Made by a program: the position numbers and the translations under genes. From positions 62,001 to 126,000 of the forward strand of contig QPGO01000124.1 of the NCBI GenBank assembly GCA_008632985.1: a stretch of DNA of 64,000 nucleotides, given 5' to 3'. The notes beneath the pieces were generated by a model. It did no database searches, had not been told where the DNA came from, and worked only from the letters and a program-made list of their open reading frames with translations. The DNA is from Psammoneis japonica. Its lineage: Eukaryota. Positions 2,188 through 64,000 of the stretch are shown here, in pieces (the stretch's first letter is position 1; every line of letters starts with the position of its first letter).

Positions 2188-3699
2188 CACGTAGCGTCTC
2201 GGCTCTCTTCCTGAAGCGTTGCGACAAAAGAAATATCAGAATGCGTTCCATAAGTTCACTACAGAAAGACGCACAGAGCTACTCTAGCTGTAGAACTGTA
2301 GAATCCTGAGTCCTCTTTGGTCAGACGTACCTGGTGTCCCGGTTCACGAGTGTTGAGGAGGGTGGGTCCAAGCTGCAGCGAGTGACAACCCAAGACAATG
2401 GTTCGACCACTACGAAGATGCGAGACGTCGAGGTGTGGCTTGTCGATGTAAACAGGAACCAGCGTCCGATGCCAATTCCAAGACAGGGCTAAGAAATCCA
2501 GACCTGAAAAACTTCAATGTTCCATTTTCCCGCCCTTTTGACGCGCGCAAATCGAAAGATCTCCATAATTCTATGTCATGTTGTTGTCATTTATTTCCTC
2601 ATGACACTCTAGAAACAATGCTGACTTCTACGCAGGACACCACCAAAATTTGGTGCCTCATTTCTCTTTCAGAGATCGACAAAATGCAGGAAGATGCAAA
2701 AAAAGCAAAGCTTTCTTTTGTGACTTACTCACCCTCACAAAAAAAAACATTGTGGTGTCATCCAAAGAAGAAGAAAGAAAGTTCGCAAAGGGTGCTGCTG
2801 CCAAGCAGAGTCGACGAGGCATTTTCTGCTCCCGAGACGACAAAGAACCGGTCTGCCAAGAAAACTGCTGCAGCCAAGAACAATGAAGACAAGAAGAGCA
2901 AGGCATCAACAGATGGTGGCAAGAGTGATGGGTCCATTGCACAGCAAACAAACCAAGGAAGATTGGTCTGAGGCGCCTCATCTGTCAATCATGATGGGCA
3001 CAGTGAACGAGTGGCTTGGGAAGAAGGGCTGGTGTCATGACAGCAATGGAGAAGCTTGTTCAATGGAAGCATTGGCTGGTTCAGTTAAAAGTGGTCAGTG
3101 TTGTCAAAAATGTTTTTGTCCTTCATTCTGTTGTCAATGAGCCTGGTGTGCGCAACTTGCCAGCTCTGAGAAGATTTTTGAACAAAACAAAAATCCACAA
3201 TTCTTGACAACACACAAAGGGACCAACCCAGTTTGATGCATCATGCATTCCTCCCAACATTGAAAAAAGAAAGGGAAATCGGCGCAAGCACCGCTGAGAC
3301 ATCACGCCCCAAAAGTGGGACACCGGCTGCGTGCATCATTGTGCTGTGCAGTTTGTTGTGTGCAACTTGGAAACACATGTTGTGCAATGATGAATGTTGA
3401 CAATGCAAGTTGCGAATTTACACATTTGGTGCAAACACCATGCCACAAAGAGATCTGGCTTCCGTTGACAAACATTGGCGCCACATTGAAGACACTGAAA
3501 AAGCTTCAAATTCAACTCAAATTCAAGGACAAATGAAAGTGCACTGCACATCATGATGCAGCACCTCGCGAAACTTCATTGGAGCTTGCAGCTCATGAGG
3601 GGCCAATGCAAGCATGTCTTAATTTGCACCATGCTTCAAATTGCATCAGACTCTGCTGCACTTCTGTTTTGGCAATTGTCCAGCCATGCAGGTGGCTCT

Positions 3700-4930
3700 T
3701 TACAAAACCTGTGGGGTTCACACTGGAGCTCATGCAGAATTTGACAAGGGTGCAACTCCATTTTGAGAATGACAAGTGGAAATGCAGAGTCTGTTTGGGC
3801 ACATGTTTGACGAGGATGCCTGAGGAGGAATCCTCTCAATTTCCTTCATTCCACTCAAACACCCCCGGTTTGGCATGCCGCGCTGCAAGAAATGGCCACG
3901 CACATTGTGCTTTGATGCGCCTTGGCATGGCAAACATGATGGTGGGGCAGACACATTTTTCATATGTGATCTCTTTCCATTGCTGCGCAAAGAGAAGGTT
4001 GACACACTGGTTTGGCTTCCTGGGGGGCTTTGGTTGCAACATGTGGTGCAAACGGTTGCATGCATTGACTCGTGCCTCAATTGCCGTGCTGCACGGGTGA
4101 TGTCTGAATGGTCAAAAACATTGCCGAGGCAAGCTCTTTCTGTGTTTTCTTGTTTTGCATCATTTTCCCATTTGCTGAAGATCATTGTTGCTTTTTGTCA
4201 CAGCTCACAAGGTGGGTTGATCATCTCACATGGTTGATCATGGCATCTTTTTTTTGGCATGTTTTTCAAGTCATTGGCGCTGCCAGAGCTCATCCGTTTA
4301 GGAGCTTCATGCTTCACCCCACTCCACATCCTTTTGCTCACTTGTTGTGCACATTAAGACGGACTTGTGATGCTCTTGATGTCCTTCTTGGGGTCTTGGT
4401 CAGCACATGATGATGGCATGTCACATTTCAGGTGTGTCAATTTCTCAAAAAGAGCATGCAGCGGAAACAAAACAACGCGATGGAGCCTCGGGGATGCTTG
4501 TGATGGTGGCATTTGCCTGACAGACTTCACATGCTCCAAAGAGAACAATCATGTGAGCACATTGTCATTGATTGAGTTTTAGAGTTGTTTTGACAAAAGT
4601 CGCACACCCTCACGAGCCTTTTTTTCGTCTCGTTCATGCGTGCAGGTGTCTGGTCTGTGATGAGCCTTTCTTCCCACTCTGCAATCTATTCTCTTCATTG
4701 TCCAAGACACAATGTCATCCATGTCATGTGGGAAGATCTCAGCAGTGCACCGATGAGTCCAGGCTTTGCACCAGGTGAAATGGAGAAGTGGAGGCCTGCC
4801 CTGACGGGCTCCTTGCCTCCTCTTGGATGCTCGGATGCCACGAACTGCCGGCAGCACTTGGGTCCTTAAAACCAGGTGGGGTGTCTCAGAGCTGCCTCTG
4901 GAAGCTGTCTCAGTGAGCACACTGTGATGC
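3700..4930 (+). repeat. Dispersed repeat family R1, copy 1 (unclassified TE relic)
   Basis: Aligns by eye with the reverse complement of ~11400-12640 and directly with ~54930-55920 (e.g. tggtttggcttcctggggggctttgg). TpA and CpG are both strongly depleted. Confidence 0.8.
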
Positions 4931-6333
4931 AAAGTTGTGCACAAAAATGTTGAAAGATCTGGCATGACAGGCTTTTTTGGGGGGCTGTGGGGACCAACAA
5001 GGAACAGTGTCAGAAACAATGTTTTGCCTTTTGTTTTGATGAAAAACATTTTTCAAAGGATGCCAAGGCATTGACATGCACTGCAACATTGGAGTTTGTT
5101 TTTCCAAGTCAAAAATGCGGCAAGTGAATCATCGCAGTGCCGGCACTGTCTTCATGTCATCACAGCGACACACGTCATCATGCCAACATGGATTTTGTGC
5201 AGCACCGGTGCCATTTGAGCAATTGCTCAAACTCAAGCAAGTTTGAGCAATCTTGAAAGTTTTGGCATTTGCTTGAACTTGTGCAAGCTTGAAGAACTCA
5301 GTTTGGAAAAAAGAAGACGATTGGTCACAACCCTCAAGTGGTGGTGCTCCTCATGCGGTGTTCACTCATGTCCGTTGTGATTGCACATGTGCCCACATTT
5401 GAGCAGTTTTCCCACATGGCACTGCTGCTGTGTCTCCAGCCATGGATGCCCTGCTTCTCATGCACTGGTGTGTGCACCTGCTGCCAACTGTTGGCACCAA
5501 GAAACATGGAAGCCTTTTTCTCCACTGGCCACTGGAGACAACTGTTCAATGGGCTGTCTGCACTCTTGAAAACAGCATCAGGAGAGTCAGAATGAAGTGG
5601 AGCAACTTGAGCATTGCACAACTCCATGTGACAAACTCTTCTGTCCACTTCAGGAAGAACATCAAAATCAACATCCTGACCTTCTTTTGAAGCTCCTCCT
5701 TTGAAAACTGCAAAGAAAAAAACACAGCAGTTGTTCAGAGTGTTGTTGCAGTGCAGTGCTGTCTGCCGTTGTGTGCCCTCTCATGAAGAATGTGGTGGAG
5801 ATTGACTTGTTTTTGACCTTCACTTGATGCCCCTTTTGCGTGTGAGGCACACTCTGTTCTCTGGCAAAGTTGTGTTTTGGGGGCTGGAGCAACGGGCTCA
5901 CCGCAATTTGGCCGAAAGCAAAAGTCGCTGTTGCTTGCAGGTGTTGCCACCACTGGCTGGGAAGCCCTGCACACTGTCATTCTTTTGTGCTTGTTGATGT
6001 TTGTTTCTTGCGAAAGTTTTGTGGCTTGCAGCAAAAAAGAAGAGGAACAGTGGATACAAACTGCAACGCAAGTGCTGATCTAATCTATCTGGCTGAGACA
6101 CATGTCACACTGTACACGACATCCAATCAATCGCATTCGTCACTCACCTGTCCGTCAAACGTTGCCTGTGTGTCAGCTGACACACGCACGCACGCACGTC
6201 TGACTGATTTTGTGAGCTGTTCGTCGTCGCTGTTCGTAATTTTTTGTCCTTGATGTTGTTCTCATGATTCTCGCAGTGCATCACAATCCTGGCTCACGCA
6301 TCCCCCATATCAACAGAAAACAACTCAGACAAG

Positions 6334-6963
6334 ATGAAGATCCTATCAAGAAGTTCGCGGTTTTTGCTGCCGTGTTTGCATGCATCATCATTGTGTCATG
6401 CGGATACTCCTCCTTCGGAATCACTACAAGGCGATCCACCATGACTATGAAACGACGTGCCGGGGGATTTAGCAAGAAACAACAAAGCAGTCCAATGGGC
6501 AATAGTGGCGGATCGGTGCTGCTGCAGCACCGTCCGGTCGTTGGGTCACGGTTGCCGGTTTACAGTCGGCCGCAGATCTCCCCACCCAAGAGGGCAAGGT
6601 GCAATTGGTGGACACCATGGCGGACGTGCTGATGAATGCCGCCACCAATCCTACCGGAGCGTATCCGTGGTAAAATATGGTGACAATACCTACTGCTTTA
6701 GTTCTTCGTGTCCGTCTTGCAAAATTCCACTCACCAAGGCCAAAGTGGTAGAGGCCAACGAGGAATCCAACGGAAGTCCCCGCGTCGTTTGTGACTTTTG
6801 TAGCGCAACCTATAATGTTCAAACGGGAGAAAATTGACGAGCGCCAAGGGTGGCGGACTATTGGGTGGAATTACCAAGGCTGTCTTTTCGTCTCAATCGA
6901 CGGGAATTTGCCAACTATGGATTGGGAGAAAAGGACGGCAAAGTGTTGATTAATCTTGGATAA
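6334..6963 (+). CDS. Rieske-like domain protein, probably plastid-targeted, with several 1-bp frameshifts
   Basis: Frames stitch to signal/transit-like N-terminus ...RRSTMTMKRR...WVTVAGLQSAADLP...YCFSSSCPSCKIPLTKAKV...RVVCDFCSATYNVQTGE...YGLGEKDGKVLINLG*, which has Rieske-fold spacing. Confidence 0.65.
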
Positions 6964-8877: not shown

Positions 8878-11229
8878 AATGTAATAATAATGATGATATA
8901 GAGATTATAACAGCAGCAACTGATGTGTGGTTGATGTTGTTGCTGATTATTGATGACTTGATGATGTCAACACGAGATACTATCCTGAGATCCTTCGCTT
9001 TCATCTTTGTGGTCATCATCAATCGCGCGATTTTGATGAGCCATCCGCACTATCGTCGCTGTCTTCGATCTCAACCGGTCATTTTGTGGACGGACAATGG
9101 CAAGACTCCCGACATTCTATCGTGCCTAGCTAGAAGTAGCTTGCACCCCCCCCCCCCACCCACACACACACACACACTGCATGTTGCCAAGTCCATTGTT
9201 CAAAAAATCACCAACATGGACTGACAAATAATGTCAACCCAAACAAAGCTGTGCTGTGGAGAAAAGTTGGGGTGCCAGACTGACACACCAACCTTGCCAG
9301 CTGCAGAGCTTTCCCCATGAAAAAAAGAGAGGGCGCACTTTTTCTTTGTGTTTTTGTTCACTCCCACCCTTGGCCGTGCGTGGTGGCCACACAGTGCTCA
9401 CCCCTGCTGCCCCAGAGTTGTGTGCAGAAACCCTGAGCAACAAAATTGAAGGAGCAAAGAATGGGTGCCTTCCACATGGTCCAGCGACAGTTGTCCAATG
9501 ATGCTGTGCTGGTGGTGTGATGAGGAGACGTCTGGTGAGCACAACACAGCCAGGCGGTGGTGTGGCGACACATGCAAAAATCACACACAGAGGGTTGCTT
9601 TGTTTGTTCTTGAGTTGCTCCACACCCACACCAGACACACTCTGTGAGATCCCAAGAAGCCCCCCCCTGGCAATGTGGAGCCAACTCCAGCACTTCTGAC
9701 TGCCAAAGGGTGTTGGGAAAGAAGAGTCTGTGATCACAGCCACTTGGTTGACATGTGGGTGTGGGCACTCTCCACAGCTTTTGTTTTTGTGCAGTGGAGG
9801 GAACTTGCTCAAAGTCTGTCAGACCACACTGTGTCACACCATGTTGTGTCCACATGCGCCGCAAGTGTGTTGGAACATCCAAATCATGGGAAATGTGAAG
9901 AACCCAGATGCGTTGAAGAAAAGATGCTGCAGCTCCTCACAAGGTTTTGCCATCACCAATCTCTCAACCTGTGGTCTCATCTCACTCTTTGGAGCAAATC
10001 ATTTGGTTTGTTTGGGGTTTGTTGACTGGCATCACCAGGCACCCATTGTCTCACAAGTTTGAAGTTTGTGCTGACAACGTCTTGGCAACCCATGGCCGCT
10101 GCAATTGACTGCTGGCCAAGGCAAGTGTGCCAAGTGGCACAGGAAGCCTGACAGGGCTCTTTTTTGGTGGCATGCTGGTTTGACATGAGCATGCCAGCAG
10201 GATCAGCATTGGAAAACCAAGGGGGCAGTGTGAGTCAAGTGCAGCTCATCCAAATTTTGTCTTGACGGCTCCCCACGTTGCAGCCACAATTCCACACAGA
10301 TTTGTTGCAAGCACAGGTGGATGAAAGCATTGAGAGGGCTTTTCAAAGGAAACAAAAAGAGATGTTTGTCATGATCATTTTCTCTGTGAAACAAAAAGAG
10401 GTGTTTGTCATGATCATTTTCTCTGCCCTTCTGAGGCCACACACTTTTCTTCTCTTTCACAACAAACTGACTCCATCAGCTGCAATGCTGCTCTCTTTTG
10501 TCAAAATTGAAATGCCGTTGGTGCTGCTGTGCATGCTGCCATGCAACTTTTTCAACTCTCCACCCATGATTTTTTGCATTGCAGTGCTCTGCCCACAAAT
10601 CTGCTGGCATCCTGTTGATTGTGAGCCCCAGAGCCTGCAAACAGCCCGTGCATGTGTTTTGATGCAAGAGATTTTCAGACACCAGACATGACAGGTTTTT
10701 GCACTCTGGCACTCAGGGAGCTTTGCAGGTGGGTTGGGAAGGCAGGTGTGGGTTGCAGCACCAAAAGCCAAGGAATTTCAAGAAGCCGCGAGCTTCATTG
10801 TCAAGTCACTTGGTGTGCGACCGCTGCTGCAAAGAACAAAAAAAACTGTGTCAGGTCATGCAGGCAGCTCCAAGTTCATGAAAAGAAGAAGAGGAAAAGG
10901 AGGAGGAACAAAGGAGAGAGTGACACTTCAAAATGCGCGCGCACAATGCCCAGAAGATCAGGCTTCCGATTCACACAGCTGGCCATCTAGTCACGGCTCT
11001 CTGCTCTAGAGCAAACACTCTAAAGAAGAACAACATTCCACGATCTATCCAAATGCATTGTCTGCTGGTTCATTGCTCACAAAAATGCAGAAAAAGCACG
11101 CACCCATGGCTGACTAACTCCACAATCAACACACAACAGCACACTCACCAAACATTTTTTCATCACTTTTCTTCAACCAGTTCCACACTGTTCTGTCCAT
11201 TCCCTCTCAGACCACCCAACCAGATGCAG

Positions 11230-12640
11230 AAAGTTCCAGGATCTGATTTCCCCACATGAACAAAGAACATCAAAGACACTTGTCATTTAGAACATGGGCC
11301 TGGAAATGCCGCTGCAAGCTTTGACAGTCAACAACATTCACACTGGAAAATGACAGGCAAAATGAAAATGTGAGTGGAACAACGCACACAGTGACAAACC
11401 ATTGGGGTCTCATGTCACAGCACACTCACCTGGGCACCTTTTGGAGGCAGAGCTGAGTGGCCTCACCAATTTTTATGCCCCCATGTGCCATCAGCGGTTT
11501 GTGGCATCTGTGCATTAAAGAGGAGGCAATGAGCCCACCAACACAAGCCTCAACCTCCCCATTTTACCCGGCGCAAAGCCTGGACTCATCGGCACACTGC
11601 CAAGATCTCCCAAAATGACATGGACAGCATTGTGTCTTAGACAATGAAGAGAGTCAATTGCAGAACAGGAAAAAGGCCTGTCATAGACCAGATGCCTGCA
11701 TGCGTGAACGAGACGCACAAGAAAAGGCTCGTGAGGCATGCAAGTTTCATCAAAACGAGTCCAACACTCAAACAATTAGAGCACACTCACAGGATTGCCT
11801 TTCTTGGACTGTGACAAGACTGTCTGACAATTGCCAACATCGCAAGTGTCCTCCAGGCTCCATCATGTTGTTTTGTTCCAGCGTGCACTTTCCAAAAATT
11901 GTGATGGCCGAAACACGACATGCCATGATTGTGTGCCAACCAAGCCCCCAAGAAGGATGTCAAGCATCACAAATCCACATTGACACACACAGTGGGTGCA
12001 CCAAAGAATGCAGAGTGGGGCAAAGCATGAAGATCCCAAACAGGTGCGCACTTTGGTGGCACCAATGACTTGAAAAACATGCCGACATGACAGACACCAC
12101 AATCGACTGTGCGAGACAATCCATCCACTTTTCAAGCTGCAACAAAATGCAACAATGATCTTTGGTGACCAGGAAAATGACACAAAATGAGAAAACATGG
12201 AAAGAACTTACCTCGACAGCATTGTCGACCAGTCAGATGTCACCCGCACTGCACAGCGATCAAGGCACGAGTCGATGCACGCAACTGTTTGCACCGTGTG
12301 TCGCAGCCAAAGCCCCCCAGGAAGCCAGCCAAGCCAGTGTGTCAAACTCTTTGCAACAGTGACAGAAAGAGATCACGCATGAAAAATGCATCTGCCCCGT
12401 GATGTTTGCCATGCCGAGACACATCAAAGTGCAGCACACATGGCCATTTCTTGTGGTGCCATGTGCCAAATCGGGGTCATTTGATTGGAATGAAGTAAAT
12501 GAAGAGGATTCCCCATCAGGCGTCCTTGTCAAATTTGAGCCAAAATGGGCCGTTGCTTTCTGCTTGTCCTCGTCAAAATGGAATTGCGTCCTCATCAAAT
12601 TCTGCACAAGCTCCAGCACATTTCCCACCGCACACAGTTT
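11230..12640 (-). repeat. Dispersed repeat family R1, copy 2 (inverted), absent from duplication copy B
   Basis: Reverse complement matches 3700-4930 and 54930-56100. Confidence 0.8.
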
Positions 12641-12659
12641 GTGAAGAGCCTTTTTATCT

Positions 12660-20938: not shown

Positions 20939-20939
20939 T

Positions 20940-52749: not shown

Positions 52750-53631
52750 AGCTGAGATGCAGCAACAAACTTCTATAAAATCAATTGTACTTTCTCTTCC
52801 TGACTTCTTGATGCACTTTTTGGTCATTGAAGCTTACATTGCGGGGCAATCACATCGTACTTGAATTGTGACATCCATGCCAGCAACGGTGTCAACAATC
52901 CTGGCAACTCCTTGACCGGACAGAGCCTGCTCTTGATGTGCCCATTCACTTTTTCTGCCTCCTTCAATCATGGCAGCATTGCATCCTAAAACCTTTTTTG
53001 TGCCACAACAAATGTGTGGCTCTGTTGTTTGTCAACTGGGTCAACCATTGGCCAACCTCATTGTCAGACACAGCAGTTGTGGAACCCAGGCCACTGTGAT
53101 CCAACACCCAATGGCACATTGGCCAGTTGTTGGTTTCCATGCCTTGCAGGAGTCACCAGCAGTGCTCTGCAATGCAAGGATCAGGCAAGATGCATGTTCT
53201 GTTGTCATGAAGCAAGAGAGAACTGTGGTTGCCAAGCAGATGTAGAGCTGCACTTGACAGACATCCGAGATGGGGAGTGCACTCCCTTGTGTCAGACAGA
53301 CTGGCACAGACAGCACAGAGAGATCTGATGATCTCTCTCTGCTCACTTTCTTTCTCATCTAGAGCACACGATTATCATCCGTCCTAGATGTCAGTTAGAT
53401 CATCCCGATGCGACAGTTCGCAAGGTTGTGAGCAGCAGCACGCTGTTTGTCTTCCTCAATGCAACCACGTTGCAACACTCACTGTGTGATTTGGCAACGT
53501 TTCTCCACTGAAATCGTCATCTTTGTCACATTTGTTTTATCACTCGATTTGTGATCTGTGATCATCACGACCACCACACACTGCATGCCAGTGTTCCACG
53601 CAGGATTTTGATTTTTTTTTTCCACGCAACC

Positions 53632-54405
53632 ATGGCACCAATGGCTGAGCAAACTTCCATTGATTTGACCAAGATCAAGTCAACACAGGTTGAATTCAGA
53701 CTGCAAAATTGCTCACCTGGTGCCCATTCTCACCTGAATGAACTTCACTCTGATGCGACACCTGCTCTTGAAGATCTTCTGGATGGATGTGCTCCTCCAG
53801 GCCTCAAGCCCGACGCAATCGCAACCATCCGTCATGAGATTTTTCATGATCCAACCACCCCTCAGGCCACCTTGACTGAGGACCTCAAATGGATTGGACC
53901 ACTCATTGACAAAGCTCCTGTCTTTGTGGCTGCCCCTCAAGACACTCCGATCCGCCTGAACCACACTGATCTTCAGAAGGCCATGACCAAAGCAATCTCA
54001 GATGATCAAGACACCACAATGACACATGTTGGGACTGTCAGTCTCTTCTTTTGTCCCAGTTTTGAAAATTGTCTGTGTTGGGATGATGTCTCTGACACTC
54101 CACACCCCAAATTCTTGTCTCCTCCAAATTCTGCATCTCAACCAGCTGTTGCTGCAGGTCTCACTCCTGAAGACTTTGCCAAGGCTTCAGCCATTCATTT
54201 GCCCCATCCAAAAGAGTGTGAGCAAGCTCTGACCAACACACTGGAGAGTGTTTCACCTCTGTCTGGGCCTCCTGCCACAACTGCTGTGACTTTGACTTTG
54301 ACCAGTGTTTCGTGCACTTCCAATCCAAAAGGACTTCCTGAGCATCAGAGGCCGCAATGTGGTGTTGTTCACTTTCCTTTGGAAAAATCAGAACATTTGA
54401 TTTGA
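53632..54405 (+). pseudogene. Tyr-free coding-like relic of unknown family, probably TE-derived
   Basis: Protein-like composition over ~250 codons with no Tyr, inside a TpA-depleted block. Confidence 0.3.
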
Positions 54406-54929
54406 CAAAAGCACGGCATTGTCAGTTGGGTTCAATTTCAAATGTTGTGGTCAACTTGAATTTGTTGTTGCCTTTTTATGTCTGCAATTGTTGCCGTTTT
54501 CTTTTGAGTTAAATTTGCCAAAGACTGTCAACGTGTCTTTTGTTGTTGAACGATGCATTTTGTGTTGATTAATTTTTCACATGTTTGTTGAAACGTTAAC
54601 TTTGACAGTGCTTTTCAATGGCTCCACCGCAGTCTTGCGTCACCACAGACAATGGCATTTCTTGCACGCCCAAGTCGGCCACGTGATCACCTGGCTCATT
54701 GTTCCCACCTGCACCCACCAGTTTTCCAGTCAACAGCTCCCCACCTGCCTTTTGGCACCCACTCTACATGCGCAATTCTCTGCCCATTTCATGACAGTGC
54801 ACCCTCTCCCCAAAAAGCATTTGACGAGAGGGTGCACTGTTGTGATTCCTGTGCATTCTACGTGAATCGGCATCTGACTGTTGGCCATGGTGTCTAACGA
54901 CTTTACCCCGTCTCACGATGCACAGATCG

Positions 54930-56100: not shown

Positions 56101-56499
56101 TCAGTTCCCAGTCGGATCTAGATTAGAGATGTGTGGCTGTTCGATGAAATGTGGGATGGAGTGTAGGCGCAAGTTCTGTTGCTTCTGGATGGTGCGCACC
56201 ACATGCGTGCTGTAGAGTGTGTGTGTGCACCATTGCGAACGATGCTTGCCGATCTGCCATTCCAATGCACAGGAAAGATGTTTCTCTAGCAGAAGCAGGG
56301 AGCACGGTGCCGGCAGTGCGTGAAAAGAAATGTGGTGATGAAGACGGTGCCGGCCCAAGCGCAGAAGTCCAAAGAACATGACCATCTCAAGATCCTCATG
56401 CCATCCTTTCTGTTGTGACTTGATTTGCTCTTTCATGTCTCGATCGATTTCCTTGGATGGATGCGAGGAACAGAGAGCATTGTTGATGTGCTTTGATTC

Positions 56500-58010
56500 G
56501 GTGAGCTTGGAGCACTTTAGATGCTCATCGTCTGCACTCCAAAATTTGCATTGGCACCCGAATTCTTTCCCGACCTGATGGGTGTGCAGAAGTGACACAA
56601 TCCACAGGCACCTTCCTTCATGCGATGATCTCCAGTGCACTTCTCAGACTCTGCCTTTGGTTGGAGCAACAAGGATGCAGCACCACTCCGAAACTCAATG
56701 TTTGGGAGGATGTGGCCGCGGCTGACCATCATGGCCACCATCAGCGGTAGATTCTGTTCTGCCCATTGGAGTGTCCAGTGGTTGCGGTGAGTGTCACAGT
56801 TCTTGAGTCGCTGACGTTTGTGTGTCTCGAGTCGTTGCATCAGAATCGGAACCAACTGAGCGGTTTGTTGCATTTGCTCCAGACCAAAAGACATGAAATC
56901 GTCTGCAACCTTGACCGCACTTGCTTGCCACATCGGATTCTCACAGAGAGGACGCCTGGCCTCATGGTCAGCAGGATCAACTGGAAGGACAGGAGCAGGA
57001 GCTGTGGTCTCACTGGGCAGTTCCTTTTTTTTCACAAATGACAGGAAGGCGCCGAGCCTTGTGACATGAGTGGATGAGCTTATGAACGAGCAAAGTCGGT
57101 GGGGAATGGAACCGCCTGCCGGAGTTTTTGTCATTCTCAGATTCATCCCTTGCCTCCGCCAACATGCCCTTGTTTGTGTGAAACTTTGACGGCTTGTCTT
57201 TCATTGATCGGAAGAAGCGTGCATTCATGAATGACTGCAGCTGTGAAACGGCAAGTTTTGCGTGCATGTCGATCGATGCCTGTGCCACAATTGGTCTGTC
57301 TGACTCATCCATAACTTGAAGACTCTCGTCGCTGCTCATCATGTCCAGCATTTTAGATTCCGCTGCCACAGCTTCATCATGTGCTTTGTTGTGTGCTGCA
57401 ATTTCACGGACAAGTTTTGCCTGCTTCTTGGCCCCCAGGCGATCCTGTCGTTCCTTCCGGGCTGCCCTTTGACCAGCAGAGTTAAGAAGTTTGGCATGCT
57501 GCAGGGGTTCTTGTGAAACACCGGCATCACGCCGGTGTGTGTTCCCGGCGGGATCACGGTCCTCGGGGAACTTGAGTTCATCAAAAACCGTTTCGGGGAT
57601 GTGACCCCCGTTGTCATCCCACGCTTTCATCAAGGTGGGGAAGGATCGGAGGCAAAGATTGCATTCTTCTTGGGAGACTTGCCGTTTGACAGCAGACATG
57701 ACGGATTCAAAATCAGGACAACACAGAGTTTGCTGGTCAATGACACCAGAGACCACGAATCCCTTCAGAATCTTCTTCCGTTGCAACGACTGAGTCAGGA
57801 TTGACGGAAGCTTGGCAAGCAAGTCAACGATTGCATCCTTGTCCTTTCCAAGCTGAAGGGAGTCTTTTCCAGGGCTCTTGCAGCCTCCAACTTGTTTGTG
57901 TGAGCATGGACGTCTAACTCTGTGGTGGTGGCTTGTTTCTTCAGGACAGATTTTGCAGTGCTGAAGACATCACAGAAGCAATTGAGCGCATGCACGCCAG
58001 CACAGGCATG
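56500..58010 (-). pseudogene. Possible DNA-transposase C-terminal relic (pogo/DDE-like)
   Basis: ORF 57010..57822 (ILKGFVVSGVID...PDF...GHIPETVFDELKFPEDRD) resembles sequence downstream of DDE_1 cores. Tyr-free and frameshifted; catalytic core not seen. Confidence 0.35.
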
Positions 58011-58100
58011 TTCTCAATTCATGATGACCTGGGCTGGTTGAACAGCATTGTCAACCGTGGGACCAATGCTCATCAGCACCCGGAGCATTGGGACTGAGTC

Positions 58101-58502
58101 ATGACTCACCAAGGCAGGCAAGGAAGGATGTGCTGTGTCTGCAGCACTTGGCACGACAAAGGAGAGAAAGAGCTGAGGGATCAATTTGCAGCGGGTGCGT
58201 GTGATGACACAAAACCAGTCATTGACAGGGGAGATGTTTCGAGATTGAGACGGAATTCGAGCGTCAGCTTGCCGACCCATGGCATGGATGAGACTGGCAC
58301 TTGTGGACCGTTGGGAGAAACATCAGCGAGGGGAGGCACTTGCGGACCAGTGATGGACAAGAAGGGCATTGTTCACGATGCATTGAAGCTGGCGAAGTGG
58401 TTCCAGTGTGACATCGTGCGAGACAACCATGAAAGACTTTGGTTCTGTGAGCAAATGGAGTTCTTCAGGTTGTCTCCAGGGACAGTCAATGAATGGATGC
58501 TG
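58101..58502 (+). pseudogene. Unknown ORF interrupted by the Gypsy element; continues at 63805-64000
   Basis: Removing the element and one gctg copy restores the frame ...PGTVNEWM-L-DIIQKEDGEREKFQSRRKEK... Confidence 0.45.
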
Positions 58503-58973
58503 TGCCCCATGCATGCACTGGGCGCTGAAAAAGAAGATGTGTTGCGACTTTGTCGTTGTGAAAATTGCAAGCTAGTTTAGAGTAGAGAAAATGGGATCGT
58601 GTGAACAGGGAATCTTGCCAAATCCCTGTTCGTTCGCATTTGGATCGCATCAAATCGATCGTGTGTTCGCATCATGGATCGTGCGAATCAAGCCATCACG
58701 CGCCATGCACGAGTGATGTCATCGTGTGGAATCATGCCACCATCGTGGGCCAGACGACGGGCTAGTGTGCTTCACACGGATGCTCTCTTGGCATCCTTCT
58801 GGAATTGCCTGAGACCCAGAGCCACGCCCTCCTGTGGTCGTGCTTCCCAGGCACGTGTCAACAATGCCACGTTGCCACGCACAAGAGGCTTGTGCACGGT
58901 CTCGCCGTGTTGTCCAGTGGCAAGGCACACTGCACACTCCCCCATGATCAGGGCCGTTAAGTGACAGAATGTC

Positions 58974-61900
58974 TTGCTGGTGACAGGGTGCAATCTGCCG
59001 TAGATTGTGCGTGTCTGTCAGCGCTCCGTTCTGGACACGCAACGTGCCGTTGTCATGCACACGGACAACTCTGGCGGGTCCTGCACAGCTGTCAGAACCG
59101 CATTTAGAGGATTGTTCCTGTTTGATGAGTGCCAATTGCCCTGCGGTGCATTGATGCTCCTTGCGTTTCTGATTTTCACGCTTGTTGTTTAAGTGGACAA
59201 GCTTCTGCTTTCTGGTTTCTATGCACTTCCACTTGGCACGATGGGCAACAGACAAAACTGCATCGCGTCCGAAGACCAATTGCGTGGGACTTGCACGCGT
59301 GGTCGCATGCACCGCAGCTCCAATGGCGAAGGCTGCTGTGGAGAGGATGCCACTCCATGGGTCATCTTTGTCCAGTTCCATGTCCTGCACTGAAAAGGAA
59401 CGTGCCATGTTGCCAAGTGTCTGGTGCACACGTTCCACTGTGGCATTCGCCTGTGGATTCCGTTTGCTTGTGGGTTTCTTCAAAATCCCACAGTCATTTT
59501 TAATCATCTGGCTAAATTCTGCCATAAATTCTGTCCCACAGTCACAAACCACCTGGGTTGGCCACGGACATCTGCACAGCCACGTTTGTTCCACGACGTT
59601 TGCCACAACATCTGCACGTTTCGCAGACACTTCTTCAATCTCGAACCACCCGGTTGCTGGGTCAATCATTGTGACTGCCCACAATTGCAAAGTGTCCTTC
59701 CCGTGTCTTTGAATTTTGTGTGGCCCTGTCACATCTGTGCATGGAGTCTCCCACGGAATTATCTCTGCGACCTTTTCTGGCAGCTTCCCATGACGCTGCG
59801 TTCGGCGTTTTGTCTTCTGGCATCGATCGCACTCAACGCACGTAGAATGCACCATGGACCTCATGCCAGGCCAGCAGAAGTGCTGGGCAATGGACATTTC
59901 TGTGCGTGTCTCACCTGGATGACACAGTGTCTCGTGGCACCATTCAGTTGGCGGAACCTGCAATGACTGTGGCACTGCGATTTTGTCTTTATGACAGATT
60001 AACTGTCGTGATGACCCTCCCCCACGATGCGCGCGAATGGAGCAGTCGGACGAGTCCTCAGCTCGTGAGAGCAGGCGCTTGTCCTTTTGTTGTGCTTTTT
60101 GAACGCGCTTGAAGCTAACAGGCATAGATGGCTCATCTTGAGTGTCTGCATTAAAGGCTTCATGCAAAGGACGACTCAATGGAGTGTCTTTTACATCCGG
60201 ATTGGCCTCGGAAGGCAAGCTGGGTGCCAGCCGAAGGCGACCAAGAGCATCAGCAACTGGGTTGTGGGCACCCTTAACACAGCGTAATTCGGGACCGTGT
60301 TCTTCGCATGTCAACCGCCAGCGCATGACGCGCTCGGCATTGAACACTTTGCACGCAAGATTTTTGTGATCAGCACACATCATTGTGCGATGACCAAGGA
60401 GAATGGTTTGAAATTCTTTCAACGTCTCCACAATGGTGAGCAATTCTCTCTCCGTTGTTGCGTGATTTAATTGCGCACTGTCAAGCTTTCTGCTGTAAAA
60501 GGCGACAGGTTTGTTGTCTTGGGACACAACTGCTCCCAATTGACATTTAGAGGCATCGGCATGCATCTCAAAGGGTTCATTAAAATCAGGATGTGATGAC
60601 AAAACATCATCCAATGTCACCCGTTTGACGGTTTCGAACGCCTCGTCTTCAATGGACGTCCACTCCCACTTGACAGTCTCGCTTGCGAGTCGTGTTAGCG
60701 GAGCCAAGACTTCAGAACGTCTAATCCACGTGTCGCGGCAGCAGCTCACCATGCCAACAAATGAACGCAGGTCGTGTTTGTCGGCTGGGGTTGCAATTCG
60801 CTCAATGGCGTCGACTTCATTGGGTGTTGGTCGTGTTCCGTCCCTGTTGGCCAGACAACCCAAGCACTCTAATTGGGTTTGACAGAAATGAGATTTAGTT
60901 GCGTTAACTTTTGGTCCTGCTTTCTGGACCCTCAACAAAACTTCTTCAAGTTTGTTGAGGTGATCTTCACAGGTGCCTTTCGTCACGACGAGAAGGTCAT
61001 CCAAGTGCGTTCGAACGAACGACAGATCTTCAAACAAGCCTGACATGCGTTCTTGGAAAATGTCTGGCGAGTTGCACAATCCCATGGGCAACACCTGCAT
61101 CTCACACTTGCCCCACGGGAAGATGAGCGTGCAGAGCTTCTTGCCATCAGTGTCCAATCGGATGTGACAACAGCCCATGTTTAAATCCAGCGATGCAGCC
61201 CACACAAAGCCTTCGAGCTCAAGTGGCATGTCTGGGACATGAGGAATCGGGTGAGGCAATCGCTTGATCCGTTTGTTCAGCTCTCTGGAATCATTAATAA
61301 AGCGTGCCGTTAAATCTTTCTTCGGCATGACAAATGATGGAGCTGCCCATTGGGATCGGTTAACGCGTTTGAGAACACCAATGCGTGCTAGGCGTTCTAC
61401 TTCTTTACGTAGCGTAGCTTCGTACGCACGAGGTACTTTATACGGACGAGCGTGGTATGGTTCTACACCCTCCTTGAGTTGGATGTGGTAGGGTTCTCCC
61501 TTCCATTCTCCTAATGTCCCATCAAATAAGGACTCATGGCGTTTCAATAGTGCCAAAAGGTCGTTTTGTTGAACTATAGAAATTCTAATTGCCCCTCGCG
61601 TTATGTCCTTGAGGCAGGCCGGCGCGTACTTAGCGTCTAAAATACGCGAAATCCGGTCGGTTTTCGAAGATAAGGCTTCTGGATCTTGAAGATAGAAGGA
61701 GGTTTCTTCCGTAGCATCTACGTGCCTCATTGGTACTTCTCCATTGACTAATGGCCACTCTATCATCTGTTTAGAGAAGACAATATCAATGCCTTGTGTC
61801 TCCAGAATGTCACGTCCAATAATCATATCGCACTTGCCCAACTTTCCGTTGTGCACGTGGACGGCATGTTTAAGTTCTGCAGTTTCGGATAATTCTGGTA

Positions 61901-62099
61901 ACCGAAATTTAACGGTACAGTCGTTAGACGTGCTGAACGAGCCTGCTACCGTAGTCCAGTTTGTCTCAGCCGTTGAATGGCTTCGCAGACGTTTACAGTA
62001 TCGACTATCGAGTAGAGTGCTGCTGGCGCCACTATCTAGCAGTGCCTCAATGGTTTGAGTCTTGCCCTTGCCATGTTTAGCATTCATAGCTACAAACAA
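58974..62099 (-). pseudogene. Gypsy pol (protease, RT, RNase H, integrase)
   Basis: LLDSGAS; LDLNMG(CC)HI, PMGLCNSPDIFQ, (H)LDDLL; DASK.QLGAV, TERELL, DHKNL; H..LCHPG...C..CQ, D.GTEF, NPQANATVERVH. Probable natural stop at 58974-58976 now reads CAA, so the ORF runs into the LTR. Confidence 0.93.
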
Positions 62100-63307
62100 G
62101 ATTGGAGCAAGATGAGTCTTTTTAACTCGTTTGCGGGATTGGCCACAACACGTGTACGATGGTAATTCAGTTGTTCATTTGTACATTCATCTGATGCATT
62201 AAAACTGCCTGCATCGTGTCGGCCCCCTTCCCAGGCATCCGAATCTTCGGAATCACTTGAGTTGAGGTCGCGGAAGTGATTGAGCTCCTCCTCGCGTGCC
62301 TTGCACTTTTTCTGAGCGTTGGCAAAGAACTCCTCGACCTTCGATCCGATGAGAGCATCAATGTCTTCCTCATTCCGAGGTTTTGTGTCAGGCTTGCTGC
62401 CTCCGTTGTTGGAATGTCCAGTCTTGGCACGTTTCGCGTGGTGCTTGAGCTGACGGCAATCCTCCGCATGATGTCCACAGTTGGTCCCGTGTGGCATGCA
62501 TGACTTCTGGGTGTTCCGTTGGGTCGTGATTGACGACTCAGGATTGTCCGTTCTACGTCCCCGCTTGCGTGGAACCTCAGCATGTTGGTCCTGGTTACCT
62601 TCGGCAAGCTCGACCTGCTCGATGCGCTCGCAGAACTGTACAAATTTGGTGACAGCATGCGCCAACGGGTCAAAATTCTGTAGCGTCATGAACTTCTGCC
62701 ATGCGTTTGGCACACCGCACTCGAACATGTCGCACAGTTCGTCATTGGGCAATGGTGCCGGTGCTTCTCCATCCTCCGTCACGGGTGGAAACTGAGAGAT
62801 GTGGCCGTTAATTTCAACAGCCCTTGCGACGTAGTCACGAGTGGAAACCTCTGCGGGCTTGCGCATGAAGCGCCTCAGATGACGCTTCTGCAGTGGCACC
62901 GCCCTGTGAGGGAAGATGCTTTCCTTTAGCTTCGCGACGCATGCTGCGTGCGCAGCATTGGTTTGGGATGCCTGCTTGTCAGCGGCATCATTGAATGACG
63001 TCAGAGCATCGCCCTGTAGCAGGTCACGCACAAGGGCAAATTTTGCTGGCCCTGTCGTGATGTTTTGTCCTTCGTGCACGCGATCCACGTTGCGTAGAAA
63101 GATTGGGAGTGTCTCGCATGTAGCCGCAGAAAGGTGCAGGATGCCCATCTCGTGTGTTGGACCATCCGGATCAGTGGGGTTGTTGCGTGGCTTGAACATC
63201 TGGTGCTCGCCCTGCTGCAGCTCTTTCTTCTCCGGCCGTGCGAGCGGAATCGGCGGCTCAATCCGCTTCTTCATGGTCGTTTTGAGATTTGTCGGTCCTG
63301 CCAACAT
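62090..63307 (-). pseudogene. Gypsy gag
   Basis: PPIPLARP...QNITTGPAKF...LLQGDALTSF...QKRHLRRFMRKP...GVPNAWQ and a knuckle-like CMPHGTNCGHHAEDC, directly upstream of pol. Confidence 0.85.
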
Positions 63308-64000
63308 TTCGTAGTTTCGTTTCTGCAGATTTCGTCACCTCGCACAATGTGCGGGAGCAACATTGCTGTGCCCCATGCATGCACCAGGCGCTGAAAAAGA
63401 AGATGTGTCATGACTTTGTCATTGTGAAAATTACAAGCTAGTTTAGAGCAGAGAAAATGGGATCGTGTGAACAGGGAATCTTGCCAAATCCCCATTCGTT
63501 CGCATTTGGATCGCATCAAATCGATCGTGCGTTCGCATTGTGGATCGTGCGAATCAAGCCATCACGCACCATGCACGAGTGATGTCATCGTGTGGAATCA
63601 CGCTGCCATCGTGGGCCAGATGACGGGCTGGTGTGCTTCACACGGATGCTCTCTTGGCATCCTTCTGGAATTGCCCAAGACCTAGAGCCACGCCCTCCTG
63701 TGGTCGTGCTTCCCAGGTGCGTGTTGACAATGCTGCGTTGCCGCGCACAAGAGGCTCATGCATGGTCTCGCCGTGTTGTCCAGCAGCGAGGCATGCTGCA
63801 GCTGGACATCATCCAGAAGGAGGATGGTGAGCGGGAGAAATTTCAAAGCAGGAGAAAGGAAAAGTGTTGGGTGGAGAGACGTCGTCGCGTTGAAGTTAAC
63901 GAATTCGTGAGAATGGTCGGAGCGGAGACGAGGGCTTTCACCCACATGACTGACTGTTCCAACAGCAGGCGACACATCAGGTTTAGAGTTGCGAAGTTGG

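What the first reader, a model, noticed from the sequence alone, without database searches (positions are those of the whole stretch)
2600..64000. Repeat-targeted TpA->TpG/CpA hypermutation: a RIP-like process running opposite to fungal RIP
Seen: TE and duplicated blocks are nearly devoid of TpA and rich in TpG/CpA, while neighbouring single-copy genes have normal TpA. Polarity is fixed by invariant motifs: Copia YVDD (38305) vs HVDD (~30075), Gypsy YLDD->HLDD and GYYHI->GCCHI, KatG IYVNPEG->ICVNPEG, MscS LHYGTGVYRQYG->LHHGTGVHWQHG. Both strands are hit (TAY->TGY and TAY->CAY). Established: fungal RIP is C->T, mostly CpA->TpA, and 5mC deamination gives CpG->TpG/CpA; neither removes TpA. Inference: a genome-defence or heterochromatin-linked mutator causes A:T->G:C at TpA. 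Candidates are a TadA/ADAT-like DNA adenine deaminase (engineered TadA variants prefer TA), Pol-eta-type error-prone patch repair triggered by deaminated 5mC, or a mutagenic base modification. I know of no description of this in diatoms but cannot search the literature.
Basis: partly seen in the sequence, partly recalled or inferred. Interest (0 to 1): 0.93.

Follow-up and report, generated by a model that had tools for sequence, protein, structure and literature searches.

The report
TpA-to-TpG/CpA hypermutation of silent diatom DNA
In this diatom genome, transposons and dead gene copies have lost about nine in ten of their TA dinucleotides to TG or CA while expressed genes beside them are untouched, the mark of a targeted A:T-to-G:C mutator so far reported only once, in an unrelated alga.

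Summary
Core depleted blocks (30.6 kb) hold 167 TpA (O/E 0.086) against 686 in 17 kb of gene blocks (O/E 0.56). Thirteen diatom proteins polarise a paralogue pair. The dead MscS copy turned 65 of 76 ancestral TpA into CpA (33) or TpG (32), and 89 of 149 CpG likewise. A->G is 16.6-fold commoner after T (p 4e-38). The target extends to 5'-TAY-3': RTAY survives at 0.017 of normal density, YTAR at 0.395. All 54 differences between the LTRs of two retrotransposons are YpR transitions, with none at 325 other sites. The process therefore acts on chromosomal DNA after integration. Only one of the two MscS copies is hit, so silencing fits better than RIP-style homology pairing. Independently assembled contigs of a public run reproduce the mutated bases at single-copy depth. 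A 2026 preprint describes TpA-only hypermutation in Bigelowiella natans. This is a new member of that kind, in a diatom. It adds the TAY motif, saturation of retrotransposons and a slower CpG decay alongside. The enzyme is unknown; an adenine deaminase is my leading guess.

The parts
2601..6400 (.). TpA-depleted block (TpA O/E 0.08, CpG 0.41, TG/CA 1.75); holds one copy of a degenerate repeat (3700-4950)
   Evidence: no Pfam domain
9001..13600 (.). TpA-depleted blocks (TpA 0.09-0.10, apart from one 400-nt window at 0.25); repeat copy 11280-12640 inverted relative to 3700-4950, with 57 CA<->TG double differences
16684..18884 (+). KatG (catalase-peroxidase) pseudogene copy 1, TpA-depleted, carries ICVNPEG
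20900..23600 (-). Dead MscS-like gene copy: 87.5% identical to the live copy, 65 of 76 ancestral TpA now CpA/TpG, 89 of 149 CpG now CpA/TpG, 7 indels
   Evidence: bases reproduced in run X1 contigs
23601..26000 (.). TpA-depleted spacer plus a very high-copy repeat (24812-25613)
28676..30447 (-). Copia fragment (RVT_2, HVDD), TpA O/E 0.11; keeps 1 of 12 family-conserved Tyr (8 Cys, 3 His)
33024..39700 (+). Full-length Copia element: LTRs 33024-33299 and 39425-39700 (17 of 17 differences are YpR transitions); ORF 34717-39477 is open but keeps only 14 of 30 conserved Tyr (12 Cys, 3 His, 1 Phe)
39601..42388 (.). TpA-depleted block without a recognisable domain
42389..44526 (+). KatG pseudogene copy 2 (peroxidase domain; best PDB KatG match E 1e-74), TpA-depleted, keeps IYVNPEG
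45870..48520 (-). Live MscS-like gene (ORF 45911-47593) with normal TpA (block O/E 0.41); serves as the ancestral-state proxy
48601..51400 (.). TpA-depleted block (TpA 0.09, CpG 0.38)
52801..54800 (.). TpA-depleted block (TpA 0.10, CpG 0.35)
56201..58497 (.). TpA-depleted block upstream of the Gypsy element
58498..63800 (-). Gypsy element: LTRs 58498-58934 and 63364-63800 (37 of 37 differences are YpR transitions, 12 of them CA<->TG double sites); pol ORF 58719-62099, upstream ORF 62090-63307; TpA-depleted except for an internal island at 61295-62200
25801..28600 (+). Spared block with normal TpA (0.50) around ORF 26114-27598; control
   Evidence: (X1 contig 25965-28305, 0 differences)
51201..53000 (+). 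Spared block with normal TpA (0.56): sulfotransferase gene 51361-52749; control

Best explanation
This is a real mutational process in a diatom. It acts on chromosomal DNA and is confined to particular regions. In silent DNA (retrotransposons, dead gene duplicates, unrecognisable repeat debris) it converts the A of 5'-TAY-3' to G on either strand. Each TpA therefore becomes TpG or CpA, seemingly at random between strands, until about 90% are gone. In the same DNA, CpG decays to TpG/CpA in the usual 5-methylcytosine way, but several times more slowly. Expressed genes a few hundred bases away are spared. The change cannot create a stop codon. It removes TAA/TAG and destroys Tyr, Ile-ATA and Leu-YTA codons, so it kills proteins by missense and leaves long empty ORFs. 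SHOWN: direction, TpA/TAY context, strand symmetry, action after integration, sharp block edges, and presence of the mutated bases in independently assembled contigs. INFERRED: that silencing or heterochromatin is the targeting cue; that the process is the same kind as the TpA-only hypermutation seen in Bigelowiella natans mutation-accumulation lines; and the chemistry. For the chemistry I favour enzymatic adenine deamination to inosine by a TadA/ADAT-type deaminase recruited to silent chromatin (about 45% on its own). That preference rests on U33-A34 being the natural target context of such enzymes, which I recall rather than tested.
For: (1) Polarity. At non-synonymous differences between the two MscS copies, 13 diatom outgroup proteins favour the TpA-normal copy 84 times and the depleted copy 11 times, with 12 ties and 51 synonymous differences. 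The depleted copy also has 7 indels. (2) Fate of dinucleotides. Of 76 TpA in the normal copy, the depleted copy has CA at 33, TG at 32, TA at 5 and other states at 6. Of 149 CpG it has CA at 50, TG at 39, CG at 53 and other states at 7. In the reverse direction, 1 of the 6 TpA left in the depleted copy aligns to CA in the normal copy. (3) Context. A->G occurred at 68/152 A after T against 56/1204 after A, C or G (OR 16.6, p 4e-38). TAY 50/92 against TAR 18/60 (p 0.004). C->T 89/303 at CpG against 0.035-0.073 elsewhere. (4) An independent test of the motif on all blocks: the 167 surviving TpA are enriched in YTAR (84, against 118 of 684 in normal DNA; OR 4.85, p 2e-17). Survival relative to normal density is 0.017 for RTAY, 0.114 for mixed sites and 0.395 for YTAR. 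By 3' neighbour of A, survival is T 0.05, C 0.08, G 0.20, A 0.25. (5) Action after integration. All 54 differences between the LTR pairs (Gypsy 37, Copia 17) are transitions inside YpR dinucleotides, which make up 54% of positions (p 5e-15). There are 0 differences at 325 other sites. Per-copy TpA loss is about 0.81 against about 0.11 for CpG. (6) Independent hits in separate copies. CA<->TG double differences number 57 in one repeat pair, 18 in the KatG pair and 16 in the LTRs. (7) Protein level. At columns where at least 90% of 25 relatives have Tyr, the full Copia keeps 14/30 (12 Cys, 3 His, 1 Phe) and the fragment 1/12 (8 Cys, 3 His). Other conserved residues are kept, e.g. Leu 50/51 and Ala 36/36. 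(8) Not a property of the element lineage. The 120 closest database relatives have 3.1-4.4% Tyr against 1.70% here. In 23 of 24 related metagenome loci, TpA O/E is 0.40-0.82 over the match. (9) Reads. Logan contigs of run X1 reproduce the depleted copy: 1027 nt over 21894-22919 with 5 differences at depth 61.9, and 1711 nt over 22960-24668 with 4 differences at depth 61.3. That depth matches the flanking normal gene (2341 nt, 0 differences, depth 57.4). The normal paralogue appears as separate contigs. (10) Precedent. B. natans mutation-accumulation lines show 230 of 231 mutations in two hypermutable viral regions as A->G/T->C; the text says all of these fall on TpA dinucleotides. The rate is about 1000 times background.
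Against: The library type of X1 is not on record, and X1 may come from the sample the window was assembled from. It excludes a long-read base-calling artefact only by inference: a 31-mer depth near 60 and a mean contig length near 214 nt imply accurate short reads. Contigs also hide minority bases. I had one 64-kb window and no genome, so genome-wide association with repeats, methylation or expression is untested, and no deaminase or other candidate gene could be sought. A 905-nt in-frame part of the Gypsy element (61295-62200) keeps normal TpA, which a simple 'whole silent element' model does not explain. The strand choice shows no runs (33 observed, 33.5 expected), so there is no sign of the processive single-strand tracts typical of many deaminases, although saturation would blur them. 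The preference for a 3' pyrimidine does not match the eukaryotic ADAT2/3 tRNA substrates as I recall them (position 35 mostly G or A). The MscS pair gives only about 40 times background for TpA, less than the LTR-based bound.
Confidence: 0.75

Rival explanations
1. The targeted process is the same, but the chemistry starts at the thymine. A TET/JBP-type dioxygenase oxidises T in 5'-RTA-3' of silent chromatin to 5-hydroxymethyl- or 5-formyl-uracil. That base mispairs with G or is repaired with errors, giving T->C.
For: From sequence alone, 5'-TAY-3' read on the A strand is the same site as 5'-RTA-3' read on the T strand, so the data do not choose between them. In dinoflagellates, also in the SAR group, 5hmU is made by TET/JBP homologues, is enriched on repeats and helps silence transposons (PMC11572971, abstract and passages). 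Older work reported a TA/TC preference in Crypthecodinium (PMC11071213, passage). That 5-formyluracil mispairs with G is recalled, not checked here.
Against: Base-resolution mapping found no sequence preference for 5hmU in Breviolum (PMC11071213). My search for 5hmU in diatoms returned one dinoflagellate review and no report of it in diatoms. No TpC effect is seen here: C->T or T->C outside TpA/CpG stays at background.
Confidence: 0.2
2. This is homology-triggered, RIP-like defence. Duplicated DNA is recognised by pairing and then mutated.
For: Everything recognisably mutated is multi-copy or duplicated: Copia, Gypsy, two KatG copies, one MscS copy and three copies of an unclassified repeat. 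Many diatoms carry DNMT4 enzymes that may be related to fungal RID, with unknown function (PMC9998398, passages).
Against: The two MscS copies are 87.5% identical over 2.6 kb, yet one is saturated and the other has normal TpA. The KatG copy next to the intact MscS is mutated, so the edge follows gene activity or chromatin state and not the edge of the duplication. The direction and context are unlike RIP. The B. natans NCLDV target is single-copy according to the preprint.
Confidence: 0.1
3. Error-prone patch repair by a Pol-eta-type polymerase, triggered by T:G mismatches from 5mC deamination in methylated repeats, writes A->G at nearby WA sites.
For: CpG decay and TpA loss occupy the same blocks. 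That Pol eta errors favour WA motifs is recalled.
Against: A->G at ApA is 25/440 against 68/152 at TpA, so the motif is TA and not WA. TpA loss runs far ahead of CpG loss: about 0.81 against 0.11 per copy in the LTRs. Some blocks have TpA 0.11-0.16 with CpG 0.74-0.82, so CpG deamination events are too few to seed it. 23 of 24 related Copia loci elsewhere are mostly CpG-poor but keep TpA.
Confidence: 0.05
4. Artefact. A modified base at TpA in repeats is miscalled by a long-read base-caller, and short-read polishing failed in repeats.
For: Depleted blocks are largely repeats, where polishing is weakest. X1 may come from the same sample as the assembly, and its library type is not on record.
Against: Contigs assembled from X1 alone carry the TG/CA states in the two-copy MscS pseudogene at single-copy depth, and hold the TpA-bearing paralogue as separate contigs. 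The dead copy also has 7 indels and extra transversions, as a true old pseudogene would. CA<->TG differences between LTRs need a real sequence difference. An unrelated metagenome contig (L004) shows the same composition, starting at the edge of its Copia ORF. Illumina mutation-accumulation data show the same mutation type arising de novo in B. natans.
Confidence: 0.04
5. Editing happens before integration: ADAR-like editing of retrotransposon RNA or deamination of the cDNA, so that mutated copies are inserted ready-made.
For: The 5' U/T preference resembles ADAR, and most identified targets are retrotransposons.
Against: The two LTRs of an element should be near-identical at integration (recalled), yet differ only by this signature and on both strands. 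Non-retrotransposed host DNA, namely a KatG-MscS segmental duplication with its spacers, is mutated. Strand outcome is 33:32. A 3' G is disfavoured, unlike the ADAR preference as I recall it.
Confidence: 0.02

Closest known systems
TpA-restricted hypermutation of integrated NCLDV/virophage DNA in Bigelowiella natans (Mettrop et al., bioRxiv 10.64898/2026.01.13.699255; sections 3, 4, 12 read)
   Same: Almost exclusively A->G/T->C at TpA, giving TpG/CpA. Confined to particular non-host or silent regions, with a rate orders of magnitude above background. Low-TpA CDS there are enriched in reverse transcriptase and DDE domains. The mechanism is unknown, with an ADAT2-like deaminase proposed.
   Different: Here the organism is a diatom (Stramenopila, not Rhizaria). 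The documented targets are LTR retrotransposons and dead host-gene duplicates, not viral insertions. Depletion is near saturation (O/E 0.09, against Rho 0.45 for the B. natans NCLDV region). A 3' pyrimidine preference (TAY) and parallel CpG decay are seen here; a term search of the preprint's main text found no 'trinucleotide', 'flanking', 'context' or 'CpG'. My evidence is comparative, not from de novo mutations.
Fungal repeat-induced point mutation (RIP)
   Same: Both riddle repeated and transposon DNA with one class of context-specific transition and leave neighbouring genes intact. Both work as irreversible inactivation.
   Different: RIP is C->T, mostly CpA->TpA, and so creates TpA and stop codons. 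RIP depends on duplication and hits both copies. Here the direction is opposite, no stop codons are made, and one of two paralogues is spared.
5-methylcytosine deamination decay of methylated transposons (CpG -> TpG/CpA). Diatom TEs are methylated: DNMT5a loss demethylates and de-represses them in P. tricornutum (PMC9998398, abstract and passages).
   Same: The CpG half of the signal here fits this: C->T at 89/303 CpG cytosines, and CpG O/E 0.52 in depleted blocks. Most of the 24 related Copia loci elsewhere are also CpG-poor.
   Different: It cannot remove TpA. TpA loss here is faster than CpG loss and is absent from 23 of those 24 loci.
TadA/ADAT tRNA adenosine deaminases and TadA-derived adenine base editors
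   Same: A->I(G) chemistry with a 5' U/T next to the target. The U33-A34 context, and the YAC preference of early base editors, are recalled and were not checked here.
   Different: No natural enzyme of this family is established as a chromatin-targeted mutator of double-stranded genomic DNA. No candidate gene could be examined here.
5-hydroxymethyluracil on dinoflagellate repeats (PMC11572971; PMC11071213)
   Same: A thymine-directed mark made by TET/JBP homologues, enriched on repeats and tied to transposon silencing in another SAR lineage. There is an old report of a TA/TC preference.
   Different: It is a base modification and not a mutation. No sequence motif was found at base resolution in Breviolum. 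I found no report of it in diatoms.

Membership tests
B. natans-type TpA hypermutation | Mutations are almost only A->G/T->C and fall on TpA | tested here: met
   A->G 68/152 at TpA against 56/1204 elsewhere (OR 16.6). 65 of 76 TpA became CA/TG. The LTR differences include 16 CA<->TG and 10 TA<->CA/TG sites. Unlike the preprint's account, CpG transitions are also present.
B. natans-type TpA hypermutation | Confined to discrete foreign or silent regions, with the rest of the genome normal | tested here: met
   Blocks at TpA O/E 0.086 alternate with gene blocks at 0.56. Edges are sharp to about 50-200 nt.
B. natans-type TpA hypermutation | Rate orders of magnitude above background | tested here: met
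   In the LTRs, about 1.65 events per TpA site per copy with 0 differences at 325 non-YpR sites. That gives at least about 180 times the 95% upper bound of background per base. The old MscS pair gives about 40 times.
B. natans-type TpA hypermutation | Arises de novo in cultured lines, episodically | not testable with these tools
   Needs mutation-accumulation or pedigree sequencing of this diatom.
Fungal RIP | C:G->T:A transitions, mainly CpA->TpA, raising TpA | tested here: not met
   TpA is removed, not made. Only 1 TpA in the depleted copy aligns to CA in the normal copy, against 65 in the other direction.
Fungal RIP | Triggered by duplication, with both copies mutated | tested here: not met
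   One MscS copy is saturated; the other has normal TpA and an intact 560-aa ORF.
Fungal RIP | Needs a RID-type DNMT and acts premeiotically | not testable with these tools
   No genome is held. DNMT4/RID-like genes exist in many diatoms, with unknown function (PMC9998398).
5mC deamination decay | C->T restricted to CpG in methylated repeats | tested here: met
   89/303 at CpG against 0.035-0.073 at other contexts. This explains only the CpG part. Methylation itself was not measured.
ADAR-type or cDNA editing before integration | Mutations precede integration, affect one strand and only retro-copied sequence | tested here: not met
   The LTR pairs differ by the signature on both strands. The strand split is 33:32 with no runs. 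A host segmental duplication is mutated.
Pol-eta WA signature | A->G at both TA and AA | tested here: not met
   ApA 25/440 against TpA 68/152.
TadA/ADAT-type DNA adenine deaminase as the agent | A CDA-fold deaminase with nuclear or chromatin targeting is present, and inosine occurs in DNA | not testable with these tools
   Only the 64-kb window is available and it holds no such gene (Pfam scans). The TAY context is compatible but not diagnostic.

The most novel reading that the evidence does not exclude
Diatoms, and possibly the SAR supergroup more widely, possess a dedicated chromatin-guided DNA base-editing defence. It rewrites the A of 5'-TAY-3' to G in any silenced DNA at 100 to 1000 times the background rate. 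That would make it, rather than cytosine methylation decay, the main force degrading transposons and dead genes. The enzyme would be the first natural mutator of genomic DNA acting on adenine (or thymine).
Probability: 0.45. Interest if true: 0.9.

Novelty: new member of a known kind. Interest (0 to 1): 0.78.

Why it matters
Diatoms are a major ecological group, and how they control transposons is only partly understood. A targeted A:T->G:C mutator would be a second irreversible genome-defence principle beside fungal RIP, running in the opposite chemical direction. Its presence in both a diatom and a chlorarachniophyte suggests either an old system or a repeatedly evolved one.

There are three practical consequences:
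- LTR-divergence dating of insertions is invalid in such genomes, because all 54 LTR differences here come from this process.
- TpA-free DNA has few stop codons, so it yields long false ORFs that gene callers will annotate.
- The TAY motif gives a concrete specificity to look for in candidate deaminases or dioxygenases, which could interest base-editing research.

The window also offers clean natural experiments for follow-up: LTR pairs, and a live/dead paralogue pair.

Tried and rejected
- No whole genome is held. Genome-wide statistics and searches for deaminase, TET/JBP or DNMT genes were therefore impossible.
- Earlier-findings look-ups gave nothing relevant (only unrelated phage and organelle notes).
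- The sulfotransferase protein search gave only 2 unnamed hits at about 32% identity and no taxon. The protein atlas gave only 'Eukaryota' (after a failed try).
- Pfam found no credible domain in 34 ORFs from the strongly depleted blocks: three weak hits, all below the curated cut-offs. What those blocks once were is unknown.
- Strand-coordinated runs of TG versus CA products were sought and not found: 33 runs against 33.5 expected for TpA, 48 against 44.8 for CpG.
- No RNA holder was listed for the stretch. Run X2 (library not on record) covers ORF 26135-27612 and carries the normal MscS paralogue, but has no cover on 23609-25212 or most of 28822-30425. This looks like a transcript set, but I do not use it as evidence on expression.
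- In L004 the 26 surviving TpA are not enriched in YTAR (4 of 26), and Tyr content is only mildly reduced. L004 may be an element long adapted to TpA loss and not a freshly mutated copy. It is 1 locus of 24 and its organism is unknown.
- None of the 120 closest database relatives of the Copia protein shows Tyr loss. Independently mutated copies would rank lower among the 1675 hits, so this says little about other species.
- GC-biased gene conversion is rejected. It would protect CpG and would not be TpA-specific.
- Native TpA-poor composition of the elements is rejected by the pseudogene, LTR and relative comparisons.
- Literature searches found no other description of TpA->TpG/CpA hypermutation.

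Full report
OBSERVATION

The window as a whole has TpA O/E 0.28, CpG 0.73, TpG 1.49 and CpA 1.46. In 1-kb windows TpA O/E runs from 0.00 to 0.73. Segmentation with 400-nt windows shows alternating blocks. Taking only the block cores:
- Depleted DNA, 30,600 nt: 167 TpA, 968 CpG, 6426 TpG+CpA (O/E 0.086, 0.516, 1.68).
- Normal DNA, 17,000 nt: 686 TpA, 900 CpG, 2507 TpG+CpA (O/E 0.56, 0.989, 1.185).

Lists of TpA positions show that edges are sharp to roughly 50-200 nt. Normal blocks coincide with ordinary genes:
- a Na/Ca-exchanger/EF-hand gene at 7224-8066(-);
- ORF 26114-27598;
- an MscS-like gene at 45911-47593(-);
- a sulfotransferase at 51361-52749.

Depleted blocks hold:
- a full Copia (33024-39700) and a Copia fragment (28676-30447);
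- a Gypsy element (58498-63800);
- two KatG copies;
- a second MscS copy;
- several kilobases with no recognisable domain.

The organism is a diatom: every named relative of the intact MscS-like protein is from a diatom, and the best hit has 56% identity.

DIRECTION OF CHANGE

A segmental duplication places KatG-MscS twice, at 16.7-23.6 kb and 42.4-48.5 kb. The MscS copy at 45.9-48.5 kb has normal TpA and an open 560-aa ORF. The copy at 20.9-23.6 kb is depleted.

The two copies align over 2636 nt at 87.5% identity. The 76 TpA of the normal copy appear in the other copy as CA at 33, TG at 32, TA at 5 and other states at 6. Its 149 CpG appear as CA at 50, TG at 39, CG at 53 and other states at 7. 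In the opposite direction there is a single TA-for-CA case.

Thirteen diatom outgroup proteins favour the normal copy at 84 non-synonymous differences and the depleted copy at 11. There are 12 ties and 51 synonymous differences. The changes include invariant Tyr -> His/Cys, Ile(ATA) -> Thr/Met, Leu(CTA) -> Pro and Arg(CGN) -> Cys/Gln/Trp. The depleted copy also carries 7 indels.

The Copia elements give the same answer. At alignment columns where at least 90% of 25 relatives have Tyr, the full element keeps 14 of 30 (12 Cys, 3 His, 1 Phe). The fragment keeps 1 of 12 (8 Cys, 3 His). Other conserved residues are almost all kept.

SPECTRUM AND MOTIF

With the normal MscS copy as the ancestor:
- A->G occurred at 68 of 152 A preceded by T, against 56 of 1204 preceded by A, C or G (OR 16.6, p 4e-38).
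- C->T occurred at 89 of 303 CpG cytosines, against 3.5-7.3% in other contexts.
- TAY is hit more than TAR (50/92 against 18/60, p 0.004).

A second test is independent of that alignment. It compares the flanks of the TpA that survive in all depleted blocks with the flanks in normal blocks. YTAR makes up 84 of 167 survivors against 118 of 684 in normal DNA (OR 4.85, p 2e-17). Density relative to normal DNA is 0.017 for RTAY, 0.114 for sites with one favourable strand and 0.395 for YTAR. By 3' neighbour of the A, survival is T 0.05, C 0.08, G 0.20, A 0.25.

The target is therefore 5'-TAY-3' on either strand, which is the same site as 5'-RTA-3' read on the T strand. The choice between TG and CA products shows no runs along the sequence (33 observed, 33.5 expected).

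WHEN AND WHERE IT ACTS

The two LTRs of an element are expected to be near-identical at integration.
- The Gypsy LTRs (437 nt) differ at 37 positions and the Copia LTRs (276 nt) at 17.
- All 54 differences are transitions inside YpR dinucleotides, which cover 54% of LTR positions (p 5e-15). There are no differences at the 325 other positions, and no gaps.
- Sixteen sites are CA in one LTR and TG in the other. Both copies must have been hit independently at an ancestral TpA. CpG loss is too rare to supply these.
- From these counts, per-copy TpA loss is about 0.81 against about 0.11 for CpG. The per-base TpA rate is at least about 180 times the 95% upper bound of background.

The same CA<->TG double differences occur 57 times between two copies of an unclassified repeat and 18 times between the KatG copies. 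The much older MscS pair gives about 40 times background for TpA and about 15 times for CpG.

Together these results show a process acting on integrated chromosomal DNA, on both strands. It is much faster than CpG decay and separable from it. Some blocks have TpA 0.11-0.16 while CpG is still 0.74-0.82.

WHAT IS TARGETED

Multi-copy status is not sufficient. One MscS paralogue is saturated and the other untouched. The KatG pseudogene immediately beside the intact MscS is mutated, with the edge near 45.4-45.9 kb.

High copy number is not necessary either. The mutated MscS region has summed contig depth of only two to four copies in run X1.

The simplest reading is that silent or heterochromatic DNA is mutated and active genes are protected. 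This is an inference; expression and chromatin state were not measured.

IS IT AN ARTEFACT?

One public run (X1, 2019) holds 78% of the sampled words of 20000-29999. It may come from the same sample as the assembly, and its library type is not on record. Its Logan contigs were assembled from that run's own reads. They reproduce the depleted MscS copy:
- 1027 nt with 5 differences, depth 61.9;
- 1711 nt with 4 differences, depth 61.3.

That depth matches the adjacent normal gene (2341 nt, 0 differences, depth 57.4). The TpA-bearing paralogue is present as separate contigs with 97 and 92 differences. A 31-mer depth near 60 implies accurate reads, which argues against a nanopore-type miscall, though this is an inference. 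Among all X1 contigs laid at 85% likeness or more, 611 of 750 variant places are transitions.

Independent support comes from 24 metagenome loci encoding relatives of the Copia protein. In 23 of them TpA O/E over the match is 0.40-0.82, and most are CpG-poor. So TpA loss is not a feature of the element lineage or of methylation decay. One locus, L004, shows TpA 0.14, CpG 0.40 and TG/CA 1.72. The depletion starts about where its Copia ORF begins. L004 keeps most Tyr codons and shows no YTAR enrichment among its 26 surviving TpA, so it is a weaker parallel.

COMPARISON WITH WHAT IS KNOWN

Fungal RIP runs the other way (CpA->TpA), makes stop codons and hits both copies. It fails two tested membership criteria.

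5mC deamination explains only the CpG half. Diatom transposons are known to be methylated (PMC9998398).

The closest match is a 2026 preprint on Bigelowiella natans. In its mutation-accumulation lines, 230 of 231 mutations in two integrated viral regions were A->G/T->C. The text says all of these fall on TpA dinucleotides, at about 6e-7 per site per generation, roughly 1000 times background. Low-TpA CDS were enriched in reverse-transcriptase and DDE domains. The authors propose an ADAT2-like deaminase.

A term search of the preprint's main text found no 'trinucleotide', 'flanking', 'context' or 'CpG'. Searches aimed at diatoms found nothing comparable, and broader searches found no other description.

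I therefore file this as a new member of that kind, with these additions:
- a different supergroup lineage;
- LTR retrotransposons and dead host genes as documented targets;
- near-saturation;
- the TAY motif;
- co-occurring but slower CpG decay;
- proof from LTR pairs that the process acts after integration.

MECHANISM

Shown:
- an A:T->G:C change at TAY on both strands of chromosomal DNA;
- confinement to particular regions;
- a rate 40 to at least 180 times background.

Inferred: the agent. I rank the candidates as follows.
1. Adenine deamination by a TadA/ADAT-type enzyme, about 45%. The 5' T fits the U33-A34 context of such enzymes (recalled). However, the 3' pyrimidine preference resembles bacterial TadA's UAC and not the eukaryotic ADAT2/3 substrates (also recalled).
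2. Thymine oxidation by a TET/JBP-type enzyme, about 20%. Sequence alone cannot separate it from the first candidate. There is a SAR precedent in dinoflagellate 5hmU on repeats.
3. Pol-eta-type patch repair. Disfavoured because ApA is not hit and because TpA loss outruns CpG loss.
4. Editing before integration. Disfavoured by the LTR and pseudogene data.
5. Artefact. Disfavoured by the run contigs.

OPEN POINTS

- A 905-nt in-frame stretch of the Gypsy pol gene (61295-62200) keeps normal TpA and CpG between depleted flanks. This could be patchy action or later gene conversion.
- The library type of X1 is unknown.
- Everything rests on one 64-kb window plus one metagenome contig.

Noticed in passing
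61295-62200 (-), inside Gypsy pol ORF 58719-62099: A 905-nt in-frame stretch (protease to the start of RT) keeps TpA O/E about 0.66 and CpG about 0.99. The rest of the same element is at TpA 0.1-0.2. This is either patchy action of the mutator or later gene conversion from an unmutated copy.
   Followed up: partly
depleted blocks, e.g. 34444-35583(-), 17191-18012(-), 42872-43579(-), 21315-22082(-): TpA loss removes TAA and TAG, so depleted DNA carries long ORFs on both strands, including antisense to Copia and KatG. The 1586-aa Copia ORF is open although 16 of 30 conserved Tyr are gone. Gene callers will over-predict genes here, and an open ORF is no sign of an active element.
   Followed up: partly
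16684-23600 and 42389-48520: There is a segmental duplication of a KatG-MscS pair (offset about 25.0-25.7 kb). Both KatG copies are degraded. Only one MscS copy is alive. The spacers differ by about 670 nt.
   Followed up: partly
20471-20922: A 450-nt island with normal TpA lies inside depleted DNA. It coincides with extremely high summed contig depth in run X1 (31,000-68,000 against about 57 for single copy). It is probably a young insertion of a very abundant short element.
   Followed up: no
L004:750-3516 (metagenome contig): A Copia relative (52% aa identity) from an unrelated metagenome assembly shows the same TpA-poor, TG/CA-rich composition starting at the edge of the element. Most of its surviving TpA look like Tyr codons. 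It may be an element lineage that has adapted to the mutator.
   Followed up: partly
L001-L024: Most related Copia loci from metagenomes are strongly CpG-depleted (O/E 0.0-0.6 in the match) with normal TpA. This is ordinary methylation decay without the TpA process, so the two processes are separable across organisms.
   Followed up: yes
24812-25613 and 28421-30425: Summed X1 contig depth of 74,000-183,000 suggests on the order of a thousand or more related copies of these elements. The genome appears very repeat-rich.
   Followed up: no
NCGN contexts in depleted blocks: CpG decay is context-dependent. With A or T 5' of the C, survival is 0.52; with G it is 0.80. TCG is hit more than VCG in the paralogue pair (39/97 against 50/206, p 0.007).
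   Followed up: partly
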